A program made the translations under genes and the position numbers. Under the pieces are notes generated by a model, which worked only from the letters and a program-made list of their open reading frames with translations, searched no databases and was not told the origin of the DNA. A DNA stretch of 6,133 nt from Candidatus Electronema aureum (GTDB taxonomy: Bacteria; Desulfobacterota; Desulfobulbia; Desulfobulbales; Desulfobulbaceae), in NCBI GenBank assembly GCA_004284765.1, contig NQJD01000068.1, positions 1-6,133 of the forward strand, in the 5' to 3' direction. Below are positions 1,173-5,995 of this stretch, in pieces (the first letter of the stretch is position 1; each line of letters starts with the position of its first letter).

Positions 1173-1300
1173 AAATCACCATGTTTAGATTCAAATAATC
1201 TACATGTTCAAAATAGAATAATCAACATGTTTTATTTATTTTTATTCAAATAAAATTTACTTTCCATGTAAAAACACGACCATCTTGAGTCGTTTTCCGC
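1173..1300 (-). promoter_or_regulatory. AT-rich promoter/leader region of the Fic-like gene
   Basis: The composition drops sharply to AT-rich directly upstream of the minus-strand ATG. The segment contains the 23-bp tandem repeats plus further CATGT and TTCAAATA motifs (1244-1251, 1264-1269). I could not assign exact -35/-10 hexamers with confidence. Confidence 0.5.
1175..1243. repeat. Three tandem 23-bp imperfect direct repeats (core ATCnnCATGTT)
   Basis: R1 1175-1197 ATCACCATGTTTAGATTCAAATA. R2 1198-1220 ATCTACATGTTCAAAATAGAATA. R3 1221-1243 ATCAACATGTTTTATTTATTTTT. The period is exactly 23 bp. The first 11 nt are conserved and the tails are AT-rich and degenerate. R1 starts 3 nt from the start codon of the Fic-like gene. 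Confidence 0.8.
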
Positions 1301-1396
1301 GCCGATCAAGGTTGTCCCAGAAAGCCCAGAAGATCATCTATCCGAGCTTCCGCCTTCACGTCCAGTGCCCAAGGCAGGCATAACCCCGGGCAGGGG

Positions 1397-1423
1397 CCGT
1401 GCCTGGTCGCTAGACCAGCACGG
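1397..1423. repeat. Stem-loop, 11 bp with one bulged C and a GCTA loop
   Basis: CCGTG(C)CTGGTC GCTA GACCAGCACGG. Pairing was checked base by base. Confidence 0.7.
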
Positions 1424-1431
1424 GGCGCAGC

Positions 1432-1458
1432 CCTGCCAAGCGAGGCCAGCGAAGCAGG
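1432..1458. repeat. Hairpin H0 (weaker member of the conserved-loop family)
   Basis: The stem is CCTGC/GCAGG (5 bp). The 17-nt loop CAAGCGAGGCCAGCGAA resembles the H1/H2 loop core GCGAGCGNAGCGA. Confidence 0.4.
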
Positions 1459-1495
1459 ACCGAGCGACAGCAGCGGGGAGCCGCAACTGAGCAAG

Positions 1496-1529
1496 CCCCC
1501 CTATCTGCGAGCGCAGCGAGTTAGGGGGG
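1496..1529. repeat. Hairpin H1: 8-bp stem, 18-nt conserved loop
   Basis: CCCCCCTA | TCTGCGAGCGCAGCGAGT | TAGGGGGG, perfect pairing. Confidence 0.85.
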
Positions 1530-1552
1530 TGCGTCGAAGGCGCGGGGGCACG

Positions 1553-1579
1553 AAGCTGCCCCGGTCCAGGCGGCAGCTT
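1553..1579. repeat. Stem-loop, 8 bp (AAGCTGCC/GGCAGCTT) with an 11-nt loop
   Basis: AAGCTGCC ccggtccaggc GGCAGCTT. It lies between H1 and H2. Confidence 0.7.
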
Positions 1580-1601
1580 GGTGGGGGGGCCGACCGGCGA
1601 A

Positions 1602-1635
1602 GCCGCCCATTTGCGAGCGTAGCGAGTTGGGCGGC
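1602..1635. repeat. Hairpin H2: 8-bp stem, 18-nt conserved loop (paralog of H1)
   Basis: GCCGCCCA | TTTGCGAGCGTAGCGAGT | TGGGCGGC, perfect pairing. The loop is 16/18 identical to H1. Three stem pairs differ from H1 and all three changes are compensated. Confidence 0.85.
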
Positions 1636-1671
1636 GTAGTCCGGTTGGGGGCAAAGCCCGGGACGCCAAGC

Positions 1672-1841
1672 AAAGCGCGGCCACCCTGGTCAGCAAGCCG
1701 GCTTGCCGGCGTGGTCGTTGCAGGGGTCCCCGTTTTCTGGACGCGCAGCGGCCGGAAAAAAGGGGAGGCAACGAGTCCCAAAGGGACCACTTTGGAGCGC
1801 TTGCGCGTAAAAGTGCCTGCGGAGCAGGGTGGCCGCGCTTT
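1672..1841. repeat. Perfect 17-bp inverted repeat enclosing 136 bp
   Basis: The left arm is 1672-1688, AAAGCGCGGCCACCCTG. The right arm is 1825-1841, CAGGGTGGCCGCGCTTT. The interior holds further small hairpins: GCAAG-CCGG-CTTGC, GTCC..GGAC, GTCCC-AAA-GGGAC, and the alternative CCAAAG-GGACCA-CTTTGG. Confidence 0.85.
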
Positions 1842-1983
1842 ATGCGGCGTCCCCCGCAAGGGGCGATAAGGAGCGAAGCGACCCAGCCCCGCTGCAAGCC
1901 GGTGAAACCGGCTGAAAGCCCAAGCCCGGCAAGGAGGCTGCAAGCCGACCCAGGGCGCGGAGCCGCAACGCGGCGGAGTTTGT

Positions 1984-2040
1984 TTTACACGAATTTATAC
2001 CACGGGTATTCATTGACAATAGCCTCACGAATAACCACGG
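1984..2040 (+). promoter_or_regulatory. Candidate promoter/operator region of the 2056 operon
   Basis: Two direct copies of CACGAAT-N(2-5)-CCACGG are present: 1988-2005 CACGAATTTATACCACGG and 2026-2040 CACGAATAACCACGG. A perfect TTGACA sits at 2013-2018, but there is no good -10 at 17 bp. An alternative pair is TTTACA 1984-1989, a 17-bp spacer, then TATTCA 2007-2012. The hexamer assignment is uncertain. Confidence 0.4.
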
Positions 2041-2055
2041 ATTGATTACCGTTAC

Positions 2056-3656: not shown

Positions 3657-4130
3657 CCCTTGACGCCGCCCTTCGCTTACAGGCCCATCGAGTCCCCCGC
3701 CCAGGATAGAGCAAGGAAGTCAGCCCTCCGCCGTTCTGCTGCCCAGTGGCGGCTTCTCGCATGTTCTGGCCGATTCGCTGACAGTCTCGGGTGTCCCCCT
3801 TTTCACCACTCTCCGAGCGCTGCTTTCACCTCCTGGGTGACCGCCTGCGCACTGGTGGCGCCGGCGAATACGGCGTCAGCTGGAGCATGGTGCTGCTGTG
3901 CTGGGCGCTGTAAGGCCAGTTCGCTACGCTTGGCGGTGGTTATCTGCCGTTCTTCCCGAACTGGGCGGAAAGGTATGAGCAGGGGCTGGTGACGGTGAAG
4001 GAGTGGCGGGAGAACCGGTTCAGGTTTTTCTGAAAAAAATAAACGACGCCTATATCACAACTAAAGCAATTAGTTTCAGACTTTTTTTACAGGAAACCTC
4101 GCTGTTACGTTCAAGCGGCGATGGTAGGAT

Positions 4131-4155
4131 TAGCACTCAAATGAGTCGAGTGCTA
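4131..4155. repeat. Stem-loop, 8 bp (TAGCACTC/GAGTGCTA), followed by an A-run
   Basis: TAGCACTC aaatgagtc GAGTGCTA, then AAAAAAC. On the plus strand it is followed by A residues and on the minus strand preceded by T residues, so it is not a canonical terminator on either strand. Confidence 0.6.
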
Positions 4156-4278
4156 AAAAACTCCCCCAACACATAAAACACTGTATCTAGTCAACACCTT
4201 GAGATAAAGCACTAGATCTAGTAGTCTAAAAACCATATTAAAAAAGTGGTTTGGAGAAAAAATGACTTTAGATGATTG

Positions 4279-4383
4279 CGCCTCTACCCCATAGCCCACA
4301 ACGGTAGAGGCGAAAAAAAGCCCACACTGGCGATTCTCTTCACGTAGAGCCAGTATGGGCAGCGCAGGGGCACCAAGAGGTGC
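4279..4383. other. Three consecutive stem-loops (possible leader or small RNA)
   Basis: The first is 4279-4312, CGCCTCTACC (14-nt loop) GGTAGAGGCG, 10 bp, followed by AAAAAAA. The second is 4320-4360, GCCCACACTGGC (17-nt loop) GCCAGTATGGGC, 11/12 pairs. Its single C/A mismatch becomes a G-U wobble if the minus strand is transcribed. The third is 4370-4383, GCACC-AAGA-GGTGC. Confidence 0.4.
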
Positions 4384-4413
4384 TAGCGGTATTCATCAAC
4401 CTTTAACAACCAG

Positions 4414-4433
4414 TTTCGTGTTGGCGCACGAAA
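4414..4433. promoter_or_regulatory. Inverted repeat TTTCGTG-N6-CACGAAA upstream of the small ORF
   Basis: The arms are a perfect 7 bp. The half-sites match those of the 16-bp element at 4752 and 5619, but with a wider spacer. It lies about 12 nt upstream of the strong SD at 4445-4455. Confidence 0.5.
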
Positions 4434-4451
4434 TCATGCTGGTGAAAGGAG

Positions 4452-4604
4452 GTGAGACCAATTAAACAGCTTAAACTTCCACTGAACATTCCAGAAGGTT
4501 ATGAACTCCGATTCGTGAGCTACATAACTGCAAAAAATGGTCAGCGAATTTATGCAAAGCACTATGGGAAAAAGGCGTTTCCGATAGTTGTCCGAGTAAA
4601 GTAA
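4452..4604 (+). CDS. Small basic protein, 47-50 aa, unknown function
   Basis: A near-perfect SD, AAAGGAGGTGA, lies at 4445-4455. The frame opens after TGA 4443-4445. The candidate starts are GTG 4452 (zero spacing from the SD) or ATT 4461 (8-nt spacing); there is no ATG. The translation is (M)RPIKQLKLPLNIPEGYELRFVSYITAKNGQRIYAKHYGKKAFPIVVRVK, with stop TAA at 4602-4604. It is too short for the supplied track. Confidence 0.5.
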   Translation: MRPIKQLKLPLNIPEGYELRFVSYITAKNGQRIYAKHYGKKAFPIVVRVK

Positions 4605-4743
4605 TCAGCGACAGCAACTAGGCAATCGTTAGCACCCTCTTGGATTCTAAGAGTGCATTAAACACGATCAGAGTGAAGATCGTCCAGCCATAATTACGAA
4701 ATACATAATTTTGAACGAACGTAATTTGCCCAATCAGAATTAG

Positions 4744-4767
4744 TATAATTATTTCGTACGAACGAAA
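4744..4767 (+). promoter_or_regulatory. Consensus -10 (TATAAT 4744-4749) followed by the 16-bp operator-like element TTTCGTACGAACGAAA (4752-4767)
   Basis: A perfect TATAAT lies 33 nt upstream of ATG 4782. No good -35 sits at 16-18 bp (TTGCCC 4726-4731 is only 12 bp away). The operator contains the 10-bp palindrome TTCGTACGAA (4753-4762) and is 15/16 identical to 5619-5634. Extra ACGAA-type half-sites occur at 4695-4700 and 4714-4724. Confidence 0.55.
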
Positions 4768-4781
4768 TAATCGGGCACCCG

Positions 4782-5642
4782 ATGACTGACCAGGAACAAC
4801 CCAAACGCGGCCGTGGCCGGCCGAAGCAATACGCTTCCGACGCCGACCGTGCGCGCGCCTGGCGGCAGCGCCAGGCTGAACTGATTGCCCAGGCACAGCA
4901 GCCGGTGGCCCCGGTAGTCATCGAAAAGATCGTTGAAAAAGTGGTCGAAATCCCCGTCGACCGCAGAATCCAGGAAAACAGCCCCAAACCCGGCCGCAGC
5001 AAGGCCGCCGGAAGCACGCCGGACGCTACCAGGCTGGCCAGTGTGCTTAAACCCAAGTTCGGCGCCTACGGCGGTGAGGAACGCGCCAAACGGCTGCGCG
5101 TGAATGCTGCGCGCGCAGCCAGCACGGCGCGCGAGATCCTCGGGATGTTCGGCGCTGGCGAGGCCATCCCGGAAGCCGAAAAAGCCTTCCTGCAGCAGGC
5201 GGCACAGTTTTTCGAGGGGCTGAATGGGTTGTTCGAGACTAGCCAGCACAGCGCCAGGCAGGCCAAGACCCGGGCGGATGCCGAGCGCCAGGCAAAGCAC
5301 AACGCGAAACTTGCCGAGGTTGTTCGGCTGACCTTCGGTGAAACGCTCGACCAGGAACAAGTCCGGGCAACTGCCGAGGCGTTGCAAGCATTCGCCAGTA
5401 GCGAAACCGGCGCGGCGGAAGCTCGCCGCCGGCGCGTTGACCGCTCCTATTTCTTCATCAATCGGGAATATGAGTTGAAAGCGGCGCTGAAAGCCGGCGA
5501 TCCTCAACAGATTGCCCGTGAAGTTGCCGAAATTCGGTTGGATGCTGGCGAACGCGGTCGATTCTGGAATGATCGTGAGGAACGCTGTTACAGCGCTGGC
5601 TGGGCGGATTTTCTCGAATTTCGTTCGAACGAAAAACGCTGA
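4782..5642 (+). CDS. Hypothetical DNA-binding protein with an N-terminal AT-hook-like motif (286 aa)
   Basis: This is a track ORF with a strong GC3 bias. The N-terminus KRGRGRPKQYASDADRARAWRQRQ has an R-G-R-P core flanked by basic residues. The rest is A/E/Q/R-rich and helical. The longer minus-strand ORF 4749..5795 is its antisense shadow. There is no obvious SD. Confidence 0.85.
   Translation: MTDQEQPKRGRGRPKQYASDADRARAWRQRQAELIAQAQQPVAPVVIEKIVEKVVEIPVDRRIQENSPKPGRSKAAGSTPDATRLASVLKPKFGAYGGEERAKRLRVNAARAASTAREILGMFGAGEAIPEAEKAFLQQAAQFFEGLNGLFETSQHSARQAKTRADAERQAKHNAKLAEVVRLTFGETLDQEQVRATAEALQAFASSETGAAEARRRRVDRSYFFINREYELKAALKAGDPQQIAREVAEIRLDAGERGRFWNDREERCYSAGWADFLEFRSNEKR
5619..5634. 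promoter_or_regulatory. Perfect 16-bp palindrome TTTCGTTCGAACGAAA inside the last codons of the 286-aa gene
   Basis: Self-complementarity was checked base by base. It is 15/16 identical to the promoter element at 4752-4767. A T6 run at 5644-5649 lies 9 nt downstream. Confidence 0.6.
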
Positions 5643-5875: not shown

Positions 5876-5969
5876 GAGGGGGCACTACAAGCCCCCTCTG
5901 GGGGCCTCGATAAGAGGGAGGGGGGGCCGGCTTTGCCGGGGGAACCCCGAAGGGGTGCCCCTTGCCCGG
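5876..5969. other. GC-rich hairpin cluster (block B)
   Basis: The first hairpin is GAGGGGGC-actacaa-GCCCCCTC (5876-5898). An alternative pairing is CCCTCT (5894-5899) with AGAGGG (5913-5918). The next hairpin is CCGGC-TTT-GCCGG (5927-5939). The next is GGGG-A-ACCCC-GAA-GGGGT-G-CCCC (5939-5961). A possible closing helix is CCGGG (5936-5940) with CCCGG (5965-5969). Confidence 0.55.
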
Positions 5970-5977
5970 TTGCGCCG

Positions 5978-5995
5978 CACGAAATTTATCCAGGG
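5978..5995 (+). promoter_or_regulatory. Third copy of the CACGAA(A)TTTAT..CCA.GG motif
   Basis: CACGAAATTTATCCAGGG here, against CACGAATTTATACCACGG at 1988-2005. It sits at the 3' flank of a GC hairpin block, in the same relative position as the copy in block A. Confidence 0.35.

What the first reader, a model, noticed from the sequence alone, without database searches (positions are those of the whole stretch)
4414..5634. A recurring TTTCGT-N4-ACGAAA operator marks both ends of the 286-aa gene, with a variant upstream of the small ORF
TTTCGTACGAACGAAA (4752-4767) lies immediately after a consensus TATAAT. TTTCGTTCGAACGAAA (5619-5634) is a perfect palindrome inside the last codons of the same gene. 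The two differ at one base.

The same half-sites with an 8-nt spacer form TTTCGTG-TTGGCG-CACGAAA (4414-4433), ahead of the strong SD of the small ORF. Isolated CACGAA(A/T) half-sites occur at 1988, 2026, 4695 and 5978.

A 16-mer recurring at 15/16 identity, with dyad symmetry, is far beyond chance. It implies a dimeric DNA-binding protein. The AT-hook-bearing 286-aa product is the obvious candidate for an autoregulator. The copy at the 3' end could act as a roadblock or terminator, a looping partner, or a partition- or origin-like site.
Basis: seen in the sequence. Interest (0 to 1): 0.65.

Follow-up and report, generated by a model that had tools for sequence, protein, structure and literature searches.

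The report
Conserved operators bracketing an unnamed gene
A 16-bp palindrome sits at the promoter and again inside the last codons of an uncharacterised mobile-element gene, and its conservation across distant relatives shows it is a real protein-binding site, most likely used by the gene's own product to repress itself.

Summary
The two 16-mers are real, at the stated coordinates, and far beyond chance (2 found, 0.01 expected). In 13 other distinct loci encoding relatives of the 286-aa protein (39-70% identity, unrelated neighbours), the dyad TTnCGT-NCGN-ACGnAA recurs. A proximal copy starts 0-3 nt after the -10 box, and in most loci a distal copy abuts the -35 box. A third copy lies inside the last codons. 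That 3' copy is selected as DNA. It survives a reading-frame change, the peptide varies only at the motif's degenerate positions, and the real codons are near-optimal among synonymous choices in all 12 loci tested. Strong sites occur almost only at this gene, so autoregulation is the best reading, but binding was not shown. The protein has no named family. It has an AT-hook-like N-terminal arm, also found on RHH and ParB proteins, and a winged-helix-like C-terminal topology without a significant fold match. The third 'variant' at 4414-4433 is not the same element. Relatives keep the hairpin by compensatory changes but not the half-site sequence. The isolated half-sites are chance or belong to other elements. 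This is a new member of a known kind, closest to LacI-O3 and C.Kpn2I.

The parts
4709..4724 (.). Degenerate distal operator relic (TTTTGAACGAACGTAA)
   Evidence: PWM score 11.8, against 23-27 for strong sites. Found as a direct-repeat family member with the other two copies. It is positionally homologous to the distal operators of L002, L004, L011, L015, L016, L019 and L020, which abut a TTGnnn -35 box. In the window it lies 43 nt, not 47 nt, from the proximal site, and the -35 is lost: TTGCCC at 4726-4731 is only 12 nt from the -10.
4744..4749 (+). -10 box TATAAT of the 286-aa gene's promoter
   Evidence: Read directly from the sequence. An equivalent TAnnnT hexamer lies 0-3 nt upstream of the proximal operator in 12 of the 13 loci of the geometry table; the L009 row is not of that form, though CATAAT overlaps its operator start. 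The simple promoter scan reported no promoter here because the -35 is poor.
4752..4767 (.). Proximal operator TTTCGTACGAACGAAA. The dyad extends to ATTATTTCGT-ACGA-ACGAAATAAT (4748-4771) and covers the predicted transcription start.
   Evidence: A matching site lies 27-31 nt upstream of the start codon in all 13 loci with an intact family gene; L017 has a disrupted 5' end.
4782..5642 (+). 286-aa gene. It encodes an unnamed family with an N-terminal AT-hook-like arm plus basic helix (residues about 8-39), a disordered VEK-repeat linker (43-76), and a helical C-terminal domain ending in a winged-helix-like alpha1-beta1-alpha2-alpha3-beta2-beta3 segment (207-271).
   Evidence: No Pfam or NCBIfam family. 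85 homolog clusters and 107 representative clusters among 1.84 billion proteins. AlphaFold models: full length pLDDT 81.7, C-terminal domain pLDDT 94.7. No significant fold match.
5619..5634 (.). 3' intragenic operator TTTCGTTCGAACGAAA, in codons F-R-S-N-E-K, ending 8 nt before the end of the stop codon
   Evidence: The site is strong in 11 loci and weak in L002/L003 and L011, and always lies 2-18 nt before the end of the ORF. It is kept in another reading frame in L009 and L016. The real codons are near-optimal against a PWM built only from upstream sites in 12 of 12 loci.

Best explanation
The 16-bp dyad (family consensus TTnCGT-NCGN-ACGnAA, with an invariant CGT.CG.ACG core) is the operator of the 286-aa gene. 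The gene, its promoter and its operators form a self-contained unit that moves between plasmids, integrated elements and chromosomes. The gene's own product most likely binds the dyad as a dimer and represses its own synthesis. The proximal operator begins 2 nt after the -10 box and covers the transcription start, so a bound protein would block RNA polymerase. In most relatives a distal operator abuts the -35 box; in this window it is degenerate and the -35 has been lost. The third operator is written into the last codons, about 850 bp downstream, and is kept by selection on the DNA itself. It most likely acts as an auxiliary operator. It could anchor a loop to the promoter operators. It could also stall elongating polymerase before the stop codon, giving truncated non-stop transcripts, as LacI does at O3. 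What is shown: the presence, significance, conservation, promoter geometry and DNA-level selection of the sites. What is inferred: who binds them, and whether the 3' copy works by looping or as a roadblock.
For: The motif occurs twice against 0.01 expected. It is conserved 27-31 nt upstream of the start codon in all 13 loci with an intact family gene (14 distinct loci analysed; pairwise protein identity 39-99%, median 50%), and these loci have unrelated neighbours: RepA/ParA plasmid, ArdC/integrase element, toxin-antitoxin modules, type IV CRISPR-Cas, and chromosomal cbi genes. The geometry is fixed: a -10 box, then 0-3 nt, then the operator. In 8 of 13 loci a distal operator abuts a TTGnnn -35 box that lies 17-18 nt from the -10. 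Across about 110 kb of these loci, sites scoring 17 or more occur only at this gene, with one outlier. For the 3' copy, Arg is always CGT in the in-frame loci, against 17% usage in these genes. The encoded residues vary (T/S/A, N/H) only at the motif's degenerate positions 7 and 10. L009 and L016 keep the DNA motif in a different frame, reading NYVRTK. Synonymous recoding matches the observed score with P = 0.004-0.04 in each of 12 loci, using a matrix built from upstream sites only. Remote relatives keep only the aromatic-Arg of the tail, not T-N-E. The protein's N-terminal arm also occurs on CopG-type RHH proteins (RHH_1, E = 3.7e-6) and on a ParB protein. Its C-terminal segment has winged-helix topology. 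Neither the gene nor the dual-operator promoter occurs in PLSDB or in the phage collection. Operators inside a regulator's own coding region that act as roadblocks are documented for LacI-O3 (PMC3711431) and C.Kpn2I (PMC6237814).
Against: No binding data exist. The protein has no recognised DNA-binding family, and the fold searches gave no significant match (best E = 0.4, TM about 0.2). Operator sequence does not co-vary with protein clade in a way that would tie specificity to the protein, so a conserved host factor would fit the same data. In the window itself the distal site is degenerate and there is no acceptable -35 box. The 3' copy is weak in one clade (L002/L003 and L011, scores 12.6-13.1), so it is dispensable in some lineages. 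The loci are not fully independent phylogenetically, so the combined P value is overstated.
Confidence: 0.6

Rival explanations
1. The dyads are genuine operators, but a host-encoded regulator reads them (for example a betaproteobacterial dimeric factor that binds 5-N4-5 dyads like CRP/FNR-family proteins), or another mobile-element protein does. The 286-aa gene would then be a regulated target, not its own regulator.
For: The core motif is the same in every clade, with no locus-specific co-variation. The distal site is centred about 43 bp upstream of the predicted start, a classic class II activator position (geometry; my inference). One extra strong site lies at an integrase gene in L011 (7576, score 18.6). 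The protein has no recognised DNA-binding fold.
Against: No other gene is shared between the loci. Three or four sites cluster on this one gene, and none occur at neighbouring genes in about 110 kb. A site written into the gene's own last codons is hard to explain for a general host regulon. The motif was not found in the literature. The protein's N-terminal arm is otherwise attached to DNA-binding proteins.
Confidence: 0.2
2. The sites are centromere-like (partition) or origin-associated sites, and the protein is a centromere-binding adaptor. Its basic N-terminal arm would talk to a ParA ATPase, and promoter repression would be a by-product.
For: The N-terminal arm occurs on a ParB-type protein (P0145) and on small RHH proteins resembling type Ib centromere-binding proteins. 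In the window and in L004 the gene lies next to an oriV region with a DnaA box, iterons and repA, and L004 and L015 carry parA nearby.
Against: Most loci have no ParA gene or origin within 4-5 kb. Where parA is present it has its own small partner gene. There are only 2-4 sites, spread over 900 bp and placed precisely on the promoter, not in a clustered array.
Confidence: 0.07
3. The palindromes act as RNA hairpins: a 5' stabiliser and a 3' end-protecting or terminator-like structure. They would not be protein-binding DNA.
For: Each copy can form a 6-bp stem with a 4-nt loop. In the window the 3' copy is followed 9 nt later by TTTTTT. Symmetric changes such as TTCCGT...ACGGAA in L012 keep the pairing.
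Against: The distal copy lies upstream of the -35 box, and the predicted transcription start falls inside the proximal copy, so neither would be fully transcribed. The central CG of the 'loop' is invariant while the stem's outer positions vary. The stem has only two G-C pairs. The T-run is absent in L004 and the other loci. The terminator scan does not report it.
Confidence: 0.05
4. The 3' copy is a by-product of a conserved C-terminal peptide (F-R-T/S-N-E) and has no function as DNA.
For: The aromatic-Arg dipeptide of the tail is conserved at protein level even in remote relatives (...DF..WR). An internal FRTN peptide also produces partial sites in one clade.
Against: The DNA motif is kept in a different reading frame in L009 and L016. 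Codon choice is near-optimal for the motif in 12 of 12 loci. Residues change only at the motif's degenerate positions. Remote relatives do not keep T-N-E.
Confidence: 0.03

Closest known systems
LacI with its auxiliary operator O3 at the 3' end of lacI (E. coli lac system)
   Same: A copy of the regulator's operator lies at the 3' end of the regulator's own gene. When LacI occupies it in a loop with O1, it blocks elongation, gives a truncated lacI transcript and leads to SsrA tagging of the product, so LacI limits itself (PMC3711431). In the window, too, the downstream copy lies before the stop codon and could pair with the promoter-proximal operators.
   Different: Here the main operators sit on the regulator's own promoter, not on a neighbouring operon. 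The spacing is about 850 bp, not 92 bp. The protein is unrelated to LacI/GalR. No inducer is known, and no roadblock or loop has been demonstrated.
C.Kpn2I controller protein of the Kpn2I restriction-modification system
   Same: The regulator's binding site lies inside the coding region of its own gene and acts as an elongation roadblock that lowers full-length mRNA. The authors suggest this arrangement may be widespread (PMC6237814).
   Different: C.Kpn2I is a small HTH C-protein with a single intragenic site near divergent promoters. The element here has promoter operators plus a site in the very last codons, and the protein family is unrelated.
KfrA-type alpha-helical plasmid DNA-binding autorepressors (RK2, R751, RA3)
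   Same: These are plasmid-borne, almost entirely alpha-helical, alanine-rich proteins of about 300 aa that strongly repress their own promoter through an operator overlapping the -35 and -10 boxes. They are classified by predicted secondary structure, not by sequence (PMC7783346).
   Different: KfrA has an N-terminal globular HTH domain and a long coiled-coil tail, and the RA3 operator is five 9-nt direct repeats. Here there is no KfrA_N match, the predicted order is reversed (N-terminal basic arm, C-terminal globular domain), the operator is a 16-bp dyad, and there is an extra copy inside the coding sequence.
Classical multi-operator repression with an intragenic auxiliary operator (lac O2 in lacZ, gal OI in galE)
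   Same: Identical or near-identical dyads lie at the promoter and inside a coding region, which suits cooperative binding through DNA looping (my knowledge of these textbook systems).
   Different: In those systems the intragenic operator lies in a regulated structural gene, close to the promoter (about 100-400 bp), not in the last codons of the regulator itself.

Membership tests
Autoregulated promoter with a dyad-symmetric repressor operator | Dyad-symmetric site of 14-20 bp present beyond chance | tested here: met
   Two copies of a 6-N4-6 dyad against 0.01 expected. The proximal dyad extends to 10-N4-10.
Autoregulated promoter with a dyad-symmetric repressor operator | The site overlaps the core promoter or transcription start | tested here: met
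   The operator starts 0-3 nt after a -10 box in the 13 loci, and the distal site abuts the -35 box in 8 of 13. The transcription start is predicted, not mapped.
Autoregulated promoter with a dyad-symmetric repressor operator | The site is conserved with the gene across different genomic contexts | tested here: met
   Found in all 14 distinct loci, which have unrelated neighbours.
Autoregulated promoter with a dyad-symmetric repressor operator | The gene product binds the site and represses the promoter | not testable with these tools
   Needs EMSA or footprinting and reporter assays.
Intragenic roadblock or auxiliary operator in the regulator's own gene (LacI-O3, C.Kpn2I type) | A copy of the operator lies inside the regulator's own coding region | tested here: met
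   5619-5634 lies in the last codons. The same placement is seen in 14 loci, always 2-18 nt before the end of the ORF.
Intragenic roadblock or auxiliary operator in the regulator's own gene (LacI-O3, C.Kpn2I type) | The intragenic copy is maintained as DNA, not as a by-product of the peptide | tested here: met
   It is retained across a frame shift, and the synonymous-recoding test gives P = 0.004-0.04 in 12 of 12 loci.
Intragenic roadblock or auxiliary operator in the regulator's own gene (LacI-O3, C.Kpn2I type) | Protein-dependent truncated transcripts, tmRNA tagging, or loop formation | not testable with these tools
   Needs 3' RACE or Northern blots, tagging assays, or looping assays.
KfrA family | Sequence match to KfrA_N, or an N-terminal HTH globular domain followed by a long coiled-coil tail | tested here: not met
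   No Pfam hit at E <= 0.1. The model shows an N-terminal basic helix, a disordered linker and a C-terminal globular domain.
AT-hook-bearing DNA-binding proteins | An R-G-R-P core flanked by basic residues | tested here: inconclusive
   KRGRGRPKQ is present, but there is no Pfam AT_hook hit for the window protein. Relatives P0193 and P0208 score E about 0.03, below the cut-off. One clade (P0037, P0047, P0055, P0073) lacks GRP altogether.
Winged helix-turn-helix repressors (ArsR/SmtB, MarR, PadR) | alpha1-beta1-alpha2-alpha3-beta2-beta3 topology together with a significant structural match | tested here: inconclusive
   The topology is present at residues 207-271 with pLDDT above 90. The top PDB hits are almost all winged-helix DNA binders, but with E = 0.4-3.4 and TM about 0.2.
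ParB or centromere-binding partition proteins | Encoded in an operon with a ParA ATPase, with a clustered centromere array | tested here: not met
   No adjacent ParA in most loci. Where parA is present it has its own partner gene.
Intrinsic terminator (proposed for the 3' copy) | A G+C-rich stem followed directly by a U-run, conserved in relatives | tested here: not met
   The stem has two G-C pairs, and the T-run is 9 nt away and absent in L004 and other loci. The terminator scan does not report it.

The most novel reading that the evidence does not exclude
This is an undescribed family of mobile-element regulators in which an operator is hard-wired into the last codons of the regulator's own gene as a selected design feature. 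The bound protein would stall RNA polymerase before the stop codon, so that excess protein turns its own mRNA into a non-stop transcript that is cleared by trans-translation. This feedback would act on top of promoter occlusion. The DNA site would dictate the C-terminal peptide, not the reverse. The same end-bracketing design may extend to a ParB chimera that shares the N-terminal arm and the RTNEK tail (P0145).
Probability: 0.25. Interest if true: 0.7.

Novelty: new member of a known kind. Interest (0 to 1): 0.5.

Why it matters
It gives a testable function, sequence-specific DNA binding and self-repression, to an unnamed protein family of about a hundred clusters found on plasmids and integrated elements of environmental Betaproteobacteria. 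It defines that family's operator at single-base resolution from comparative data alone. It also gives a clean natural example of a protein-binding site constraining the coding sequence it sits in: the C-terminal peptide follows the DNA motif, even across a frame change. If the 3' copy proves to be a roadblock, LacI-O3-type autoregulation would be a conserved, selected strategy and not a peculiarity of the lac system. The compact promoter-operator unit could also be useful as a portable self-limiting expression module.

Tried and rejected
1. Replication initiator with iterons: rejected. L004 and L015 have separate RepA/Rep3 genes, and the window's oriV-type element lies downstream at 5880-5990.
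2. The site at 4414-4433 as a third operator: rejected on spacing and on comparative grounds.
3. Isolated half-sites as part of the system: rejected. Their count is at chance level, 5978 is not conserved in L004, and 1988 and 2026 read as a separate direct repeat, CACGAAT..ACCACGG.
4. The 3' copy as a peptide by-product: rejected.
5. Fold identification of the protein: PDB and BFVD searches with the full model, and a PDB search with the C-terminal domain model, gave nothing significant. A sequence-profile search against the PDB gave only a spurious LUC7 hit.
6. Looking for the motif elsewhere: 51 single hits in viral contigs, none with a family gene and none paired, which is consistent with chance. 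BLAST of the dual-operator promoter against PLSDB gave only chance-level fragments.
7. More family loci from viral contigs: none found.
9. Literature searches for the motif and for the N-terminal peptide: no papers.
10. Locus-specific co-variation between operator variants and protein clades, to tie specificity to the protein: none convincing.
11. Rfam: no family matches any part of the region.
Full report
**Observation**

The window is a 6133-bp contig. TTTCGTACGAACGAAA lies at 4752-4767, two bases after a consensus TATAAT at 4744-4749. TTTCGTTCGAACGAAA lies at 5619-5634, inside the codons TTT CGT TCG AAC GAA A (F-R-S-N-E-K) of the 286-aa ORF 4782-5642. TTTCGTG-TTGGCG-CACGAAA lies at 4414-4433. 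The pattern TTTCGT-N4-ACGAAA occurs twice against 0.01 expected. With any spacer of 0-20 nt it occurs three times against 0.01 expected. After removing the six half-sites inside the palindromes, four TTTCGT/ACGAAA hexamers remain against 2.7 expected, so the isolated half-sites are unremarkable.

**Context**

The right end of the window, from about 5992, is a Tn3/Tn21-family inverted repeat. Positions 5880-5990 match unannotated DNA of small betaproteobacterial plasmids. Aligned with L004 and a Thauera plasmid, this stretch is a conserved GC-rich element ending in a DnaA box (TTATCCACA in L004). In those two replicons it is followed by iterons and repA. In the window the transposon end cuts the DnaA box (TTATCCA|GGGG). 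The window is therefore a plasmid backbone fragment. The 'half-site' at 5978 flanks the DnaA box and is not conserved in L004.

**The gene**

The 286-aa protein matches no Pfam or NCBIfam family. It has no relative in PLSDB plasmids or in the phage collection. It has 85 homolog clusters in the 5.8-billion-protein set, all unnamed and almost all from metagenomes. An exhaustive profile search found 107 representative clusters among 1.84 billion proteins.

AlphaFold (mean pLDDT 81.7) predicts a basic N-terminal helix at residues 20-39, preceded by KRGRGRP. A disordered VEK-repeat linker follows at 43-76, and then a confident helical domain at 83-286. A domain-only model of residues 190-286 reached pLDDT 94.7. 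It shows an alpha1-beta1-alpha2-alpha3-beta2-beta3 order typical of winged helices. Fold searches found nothing significant. The domain's top PDB hits are nearly all ArsR/SmtB, MarR, PadR, TubR or RTP winged-helix DNA binders, but only at E = 0.4-3.4 and TM about 0.2. I treat this as a hint, not a test.

**Comparative test of the element**

I obtained 14 distinct loci encoding family members. Pairwise protein identity ranges from 39% to 99%, with a median of 50%. The neighbours are unrelated from locus to locus:
- a RepA/ParA plasmid (L004)
- a Rep3/ParA/resolvase plasmid (L015)
- an ArdC/integrase element (L011)
- toxin-antitoxin modules (L006, L009, L020)
- a type IV CRISPR-Cas locus (L018)
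- chromosomal cbi genes (L012)

All 13 loci with an intact family gene carry the dyad 27-31 nt upstream of the start codon; L017, whose 5' end is disrupted, also carries upstream copies. The family consensus is TTnCGT-NCGN-ACGnAA, with an invariant CGT.CG.ACG core.

The promoter geometry is fixed. The proximal operator starts 0-3 nt after the -10 box. In 8 of 13 loci a distal operator (...CGTNCGNACGATA) abuts a TTGnnn -35 box that lies 17-18 nt from the -10. The predicted transcription start therefore falls inside the proximal operator, and the distal operator abuts or overlaps the -35 box.

In the window the distal site is degenerate (score 11.8, against 23-27 for strong sites). It lies 43 nt, not 47 nt, from the proximal site, and no acceptable -35 box remains.

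A weight-matrix scan of about 110 kb of these loci finds strong sites only at this gene's promoter and inside its coding sequence. There is one outlier, in L011.

**The 3' copy**

A copy lies 2-18 nt before the end of the ORF in every locus. It is strong in 11 loci and weak in the YRTNG/V clade. Four observations show that the DNA, not the peptide, is under selection.
1. L009 and L016 keep the motif (TTACGTACGCACGAAA and TTACGTGCGAACGAAA) in a different reading frame, where it reads N-Y-V-R-T-K instead of F-R-T-N-E.
2. In the in-frame loci Arg is always CGT, which makes up 17% of Arg codons in these genes. The encoded residues vary (T/S/A as ACG/TCG/GCG, N/H as AAC/CAC) only at the motif's degenerate positions 7 and 10.
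3. I built a matrix from upstream proximal sites only and enumerated all synonymous recodings weighted by family codon usage. The observed codons are at or near the optimum in all 12 distinct loci, with P = 0.004-0.04 each. The combined value of about 1e-13 assumes the loci are independent, so it is overstated.
4. Remote relatives keep only the aromatic-Arg of the tail (...DF..WR), not T-N-E.

The spacing between the proximal and 3' copies varies from 833 to 870 bp, so helical phasing is not conserved. There is no conserved -10 box upstream of the 3' copy and no conserved T-run after it. It is therefore neither a promoter operator for a downstream gene nor a terminator.

**The third 'variant'**

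The small ORF has only two homolog clusters, at 79% identity. It never accompanies the 286-aa gene in other loci. In the two loci that carry it, the position corresponding to 4414-4433 reads GCCGTG-N6-CACGG with unrelated loops. Pairing is preserved through changes on both sides, but the TTTCGT/ACGAAA half-sites are not.

The hairpin is one of several covarying stems in a leader of about 200 nt. In that leader the Shine-Dalgarno sequence GAAAGGAGG pairs with an upstream CCTTT. Together with the different spacing (8 nt against 4 nt between hexamers), this makes it a structural hairpin of another module. It is not a site for the same protein.

**Who binds**

This is the inferred step. The points in favour of the gene's own product are:
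- It is the only gene that always accompanies the sites.
- Three or four sites cluster on this one transcription unit.
- Neither the gene nor the dual-operator promoter occurs in 72,556 plasmids.
- The 16-mer occurs in viral contigs only as single, chance-level hits without the gene.
- The protein's N-terminal arm (GRPxxYxSxAERxRAWRxRQ) is a portable module. It also occurs at the N-terminus of CopG-type RHH proteins (P0218, RHH_1 E = 3.7e-6) and of a ParB-type protein (P0145, ParB_N E = 8.5e-9).

P0145 also ends in ...LIRTNEKTKSIDK, the same tail peptide as the family. This suggests that it too carries the dyad in its last codons, but its DNA could not be fetched.

Against self-binding, there is no recognised DNA-binding fold. 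There is also no clade-specific co-variation between operator and protein, so a conserved host factor remains possible. I put that rival at about 0.2.

**Mechanism**

The most likely mechanism is autogenous repression. Dimers on the proximal operator, and on the distal operator where it is intact, would occlude the promoter. The 3' copy would be an auxiliary operator.

Two documented mechanisms fit the 3' copy. The first is a loop anchor that raises occupancy at the promoter. The second is an elongation roadblock. LacI bound at O3, at the 3' end of lacI, yields truncated lacI transcripts whose products are SsrA-tagged (PMC3711431). C.Kpn2I binds inside its own coding region and stalls RNA polymerase (PMC6237814).

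The site stays before the stop codon in every locus, despite the coding constraint this imposes. That placement is what a roadblock producing non-stop transcripts would require, and simple looping would not need it. This is my inference.

**Comparison and novelty**

KfrA-type plasmid proteins are functionally similar: alpha-helical, about 300 aa, and strong autorepressors with an operator over the -35 and -10 boxes (PMC7783346). The protein here fails the KfrA sequence and architecture tests. Neither the motif nor the N-terminal peptide appears in the searchable literature.

I therefore file this as a new member of a known kind: a dyad operator with an autoregulated promoter and an intragenic auxiliary copy. 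It belongs to an undescribed protein family, and its unusual feature is that the auxiliary copy is conserved in the last codons.

**Verdict**

- The operator interpretation is supported for the two 16-mers, and extended by a distal copy.
- It is not supported for the 4414-4433 variant or the isolated half-sites.
- Autoregulation is the best-supported but unproven mechanism (confidence 0.6).
- Interest: 0.5.

Noticed in passing
window 4130-4156: TTAGCACTC-AAATGAGTC-GAGTGCTAA is a perfect match to the CIRCE consensus (TTAGCACTC-N9-GAGTGCTAA). From memory, that is the HrcA heat-shock operator. It had 0 matches in 200 shuffles even with 3 mismatches allowed. It sits on a plasmid backbone, about 70 nt upstream of a putative promoter for the small ORF's leader, and is absent from the two homologous loci L022 and L023. 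A degenerate CIRCE-like repeat lies at about 4630-4662.
   Followed up: partly
window 4255-4462 (includes the hairpin at 4414-4433): There is a structured leader upstream of the 50-aa ORF. Of 56 predicted pairs, 10 show compensatory changes across three sequences. The SD sequence GAAAGGAGG pairs with an upstream CCTTT, which suggests translational control. There is no Rfam match.
   Followed up: partly
window 4452-4604: The small ORF's start is probably not the GTG at 4452, which abuts the SD sequence. In the two homologs the start ATG aligns with ATT at 4461 in the window (CCAATGAAACAG against CCAATTAAACAG). The window copy therefore uses a rare ATT start or is impaired. Only two homolog clusters exist among 5.8 billion proteins.
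   Followed up: partly
window 5880-5995: A conserved GC-rich element plus a DnaA box precedes iterons and repA in L004 and in Thauera plasmid NZ_OW011624. In the window a Tn21/Tn3-family inverted repeat (from about 5992) is inserted into the DnaA box (TTATCCA|GGGGTCG...), separating the backbone from its origin and repA.
   Followed up: yes
window 1300-1985: This is a GC-rich (65-73%) non-coding region of about 680 nt between the 390-aa gene and the MobC-like gene. It folds far better than shuffled sequence on both strands (z = -6.4 and -5.3). It has a 39-nt inverted repeat (1660-1698 / 1815-1853) and three copies of a hairpin whose loop is TNTGCGAGCGYAGCGAGT. It has no Rfam match and no PLSDB match. 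Its function is unknown.
   Followed up: partly
window 1986-2045: The 'half-sites' at 1988 and 2026 are part of a separate direct repeat (CACGAATTTATACCACGG and CACGAATAACCACGG) just upstream of the MobC-like gene 2056-2877 (NCBIfam MobC_subf E = 4e-8, below the cut-off). This is possibly an operator or part of an oriT for that gene.
   Followed up: no
P0145 (not in the window; cluster members P0189 and P0190): This is a ParB-type partition protein that carries the same N-terminal arm and VEK linker as the 286-aa family. It has the same RTNEK peptide near its C-terminus, which suggests a domain swap inside a gene whose operator-bearing ends were kept. Its DNA was not obtainable.
   Followed up: partly
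L012 4307-4322, L015 4301-4316, L017 4226-4241: In one clade a partial fourth copy (TTYCGTACGAACGC) lies inside the gene, at the conserved peptide RFRTNAA. The window has CTG CGC GTG AAT GCT at that position and no site.
   Followed up: no
window 4770-4783: ATCGGGCACCCGAT is a perfect 5-4-5 palindrome that spans the last 12 nt of the leader and the first two bases of the ATG of the 286-aa gene. It could occlude the start codon in the mRNA. It is not conserved in other loci.
   Followed up: no
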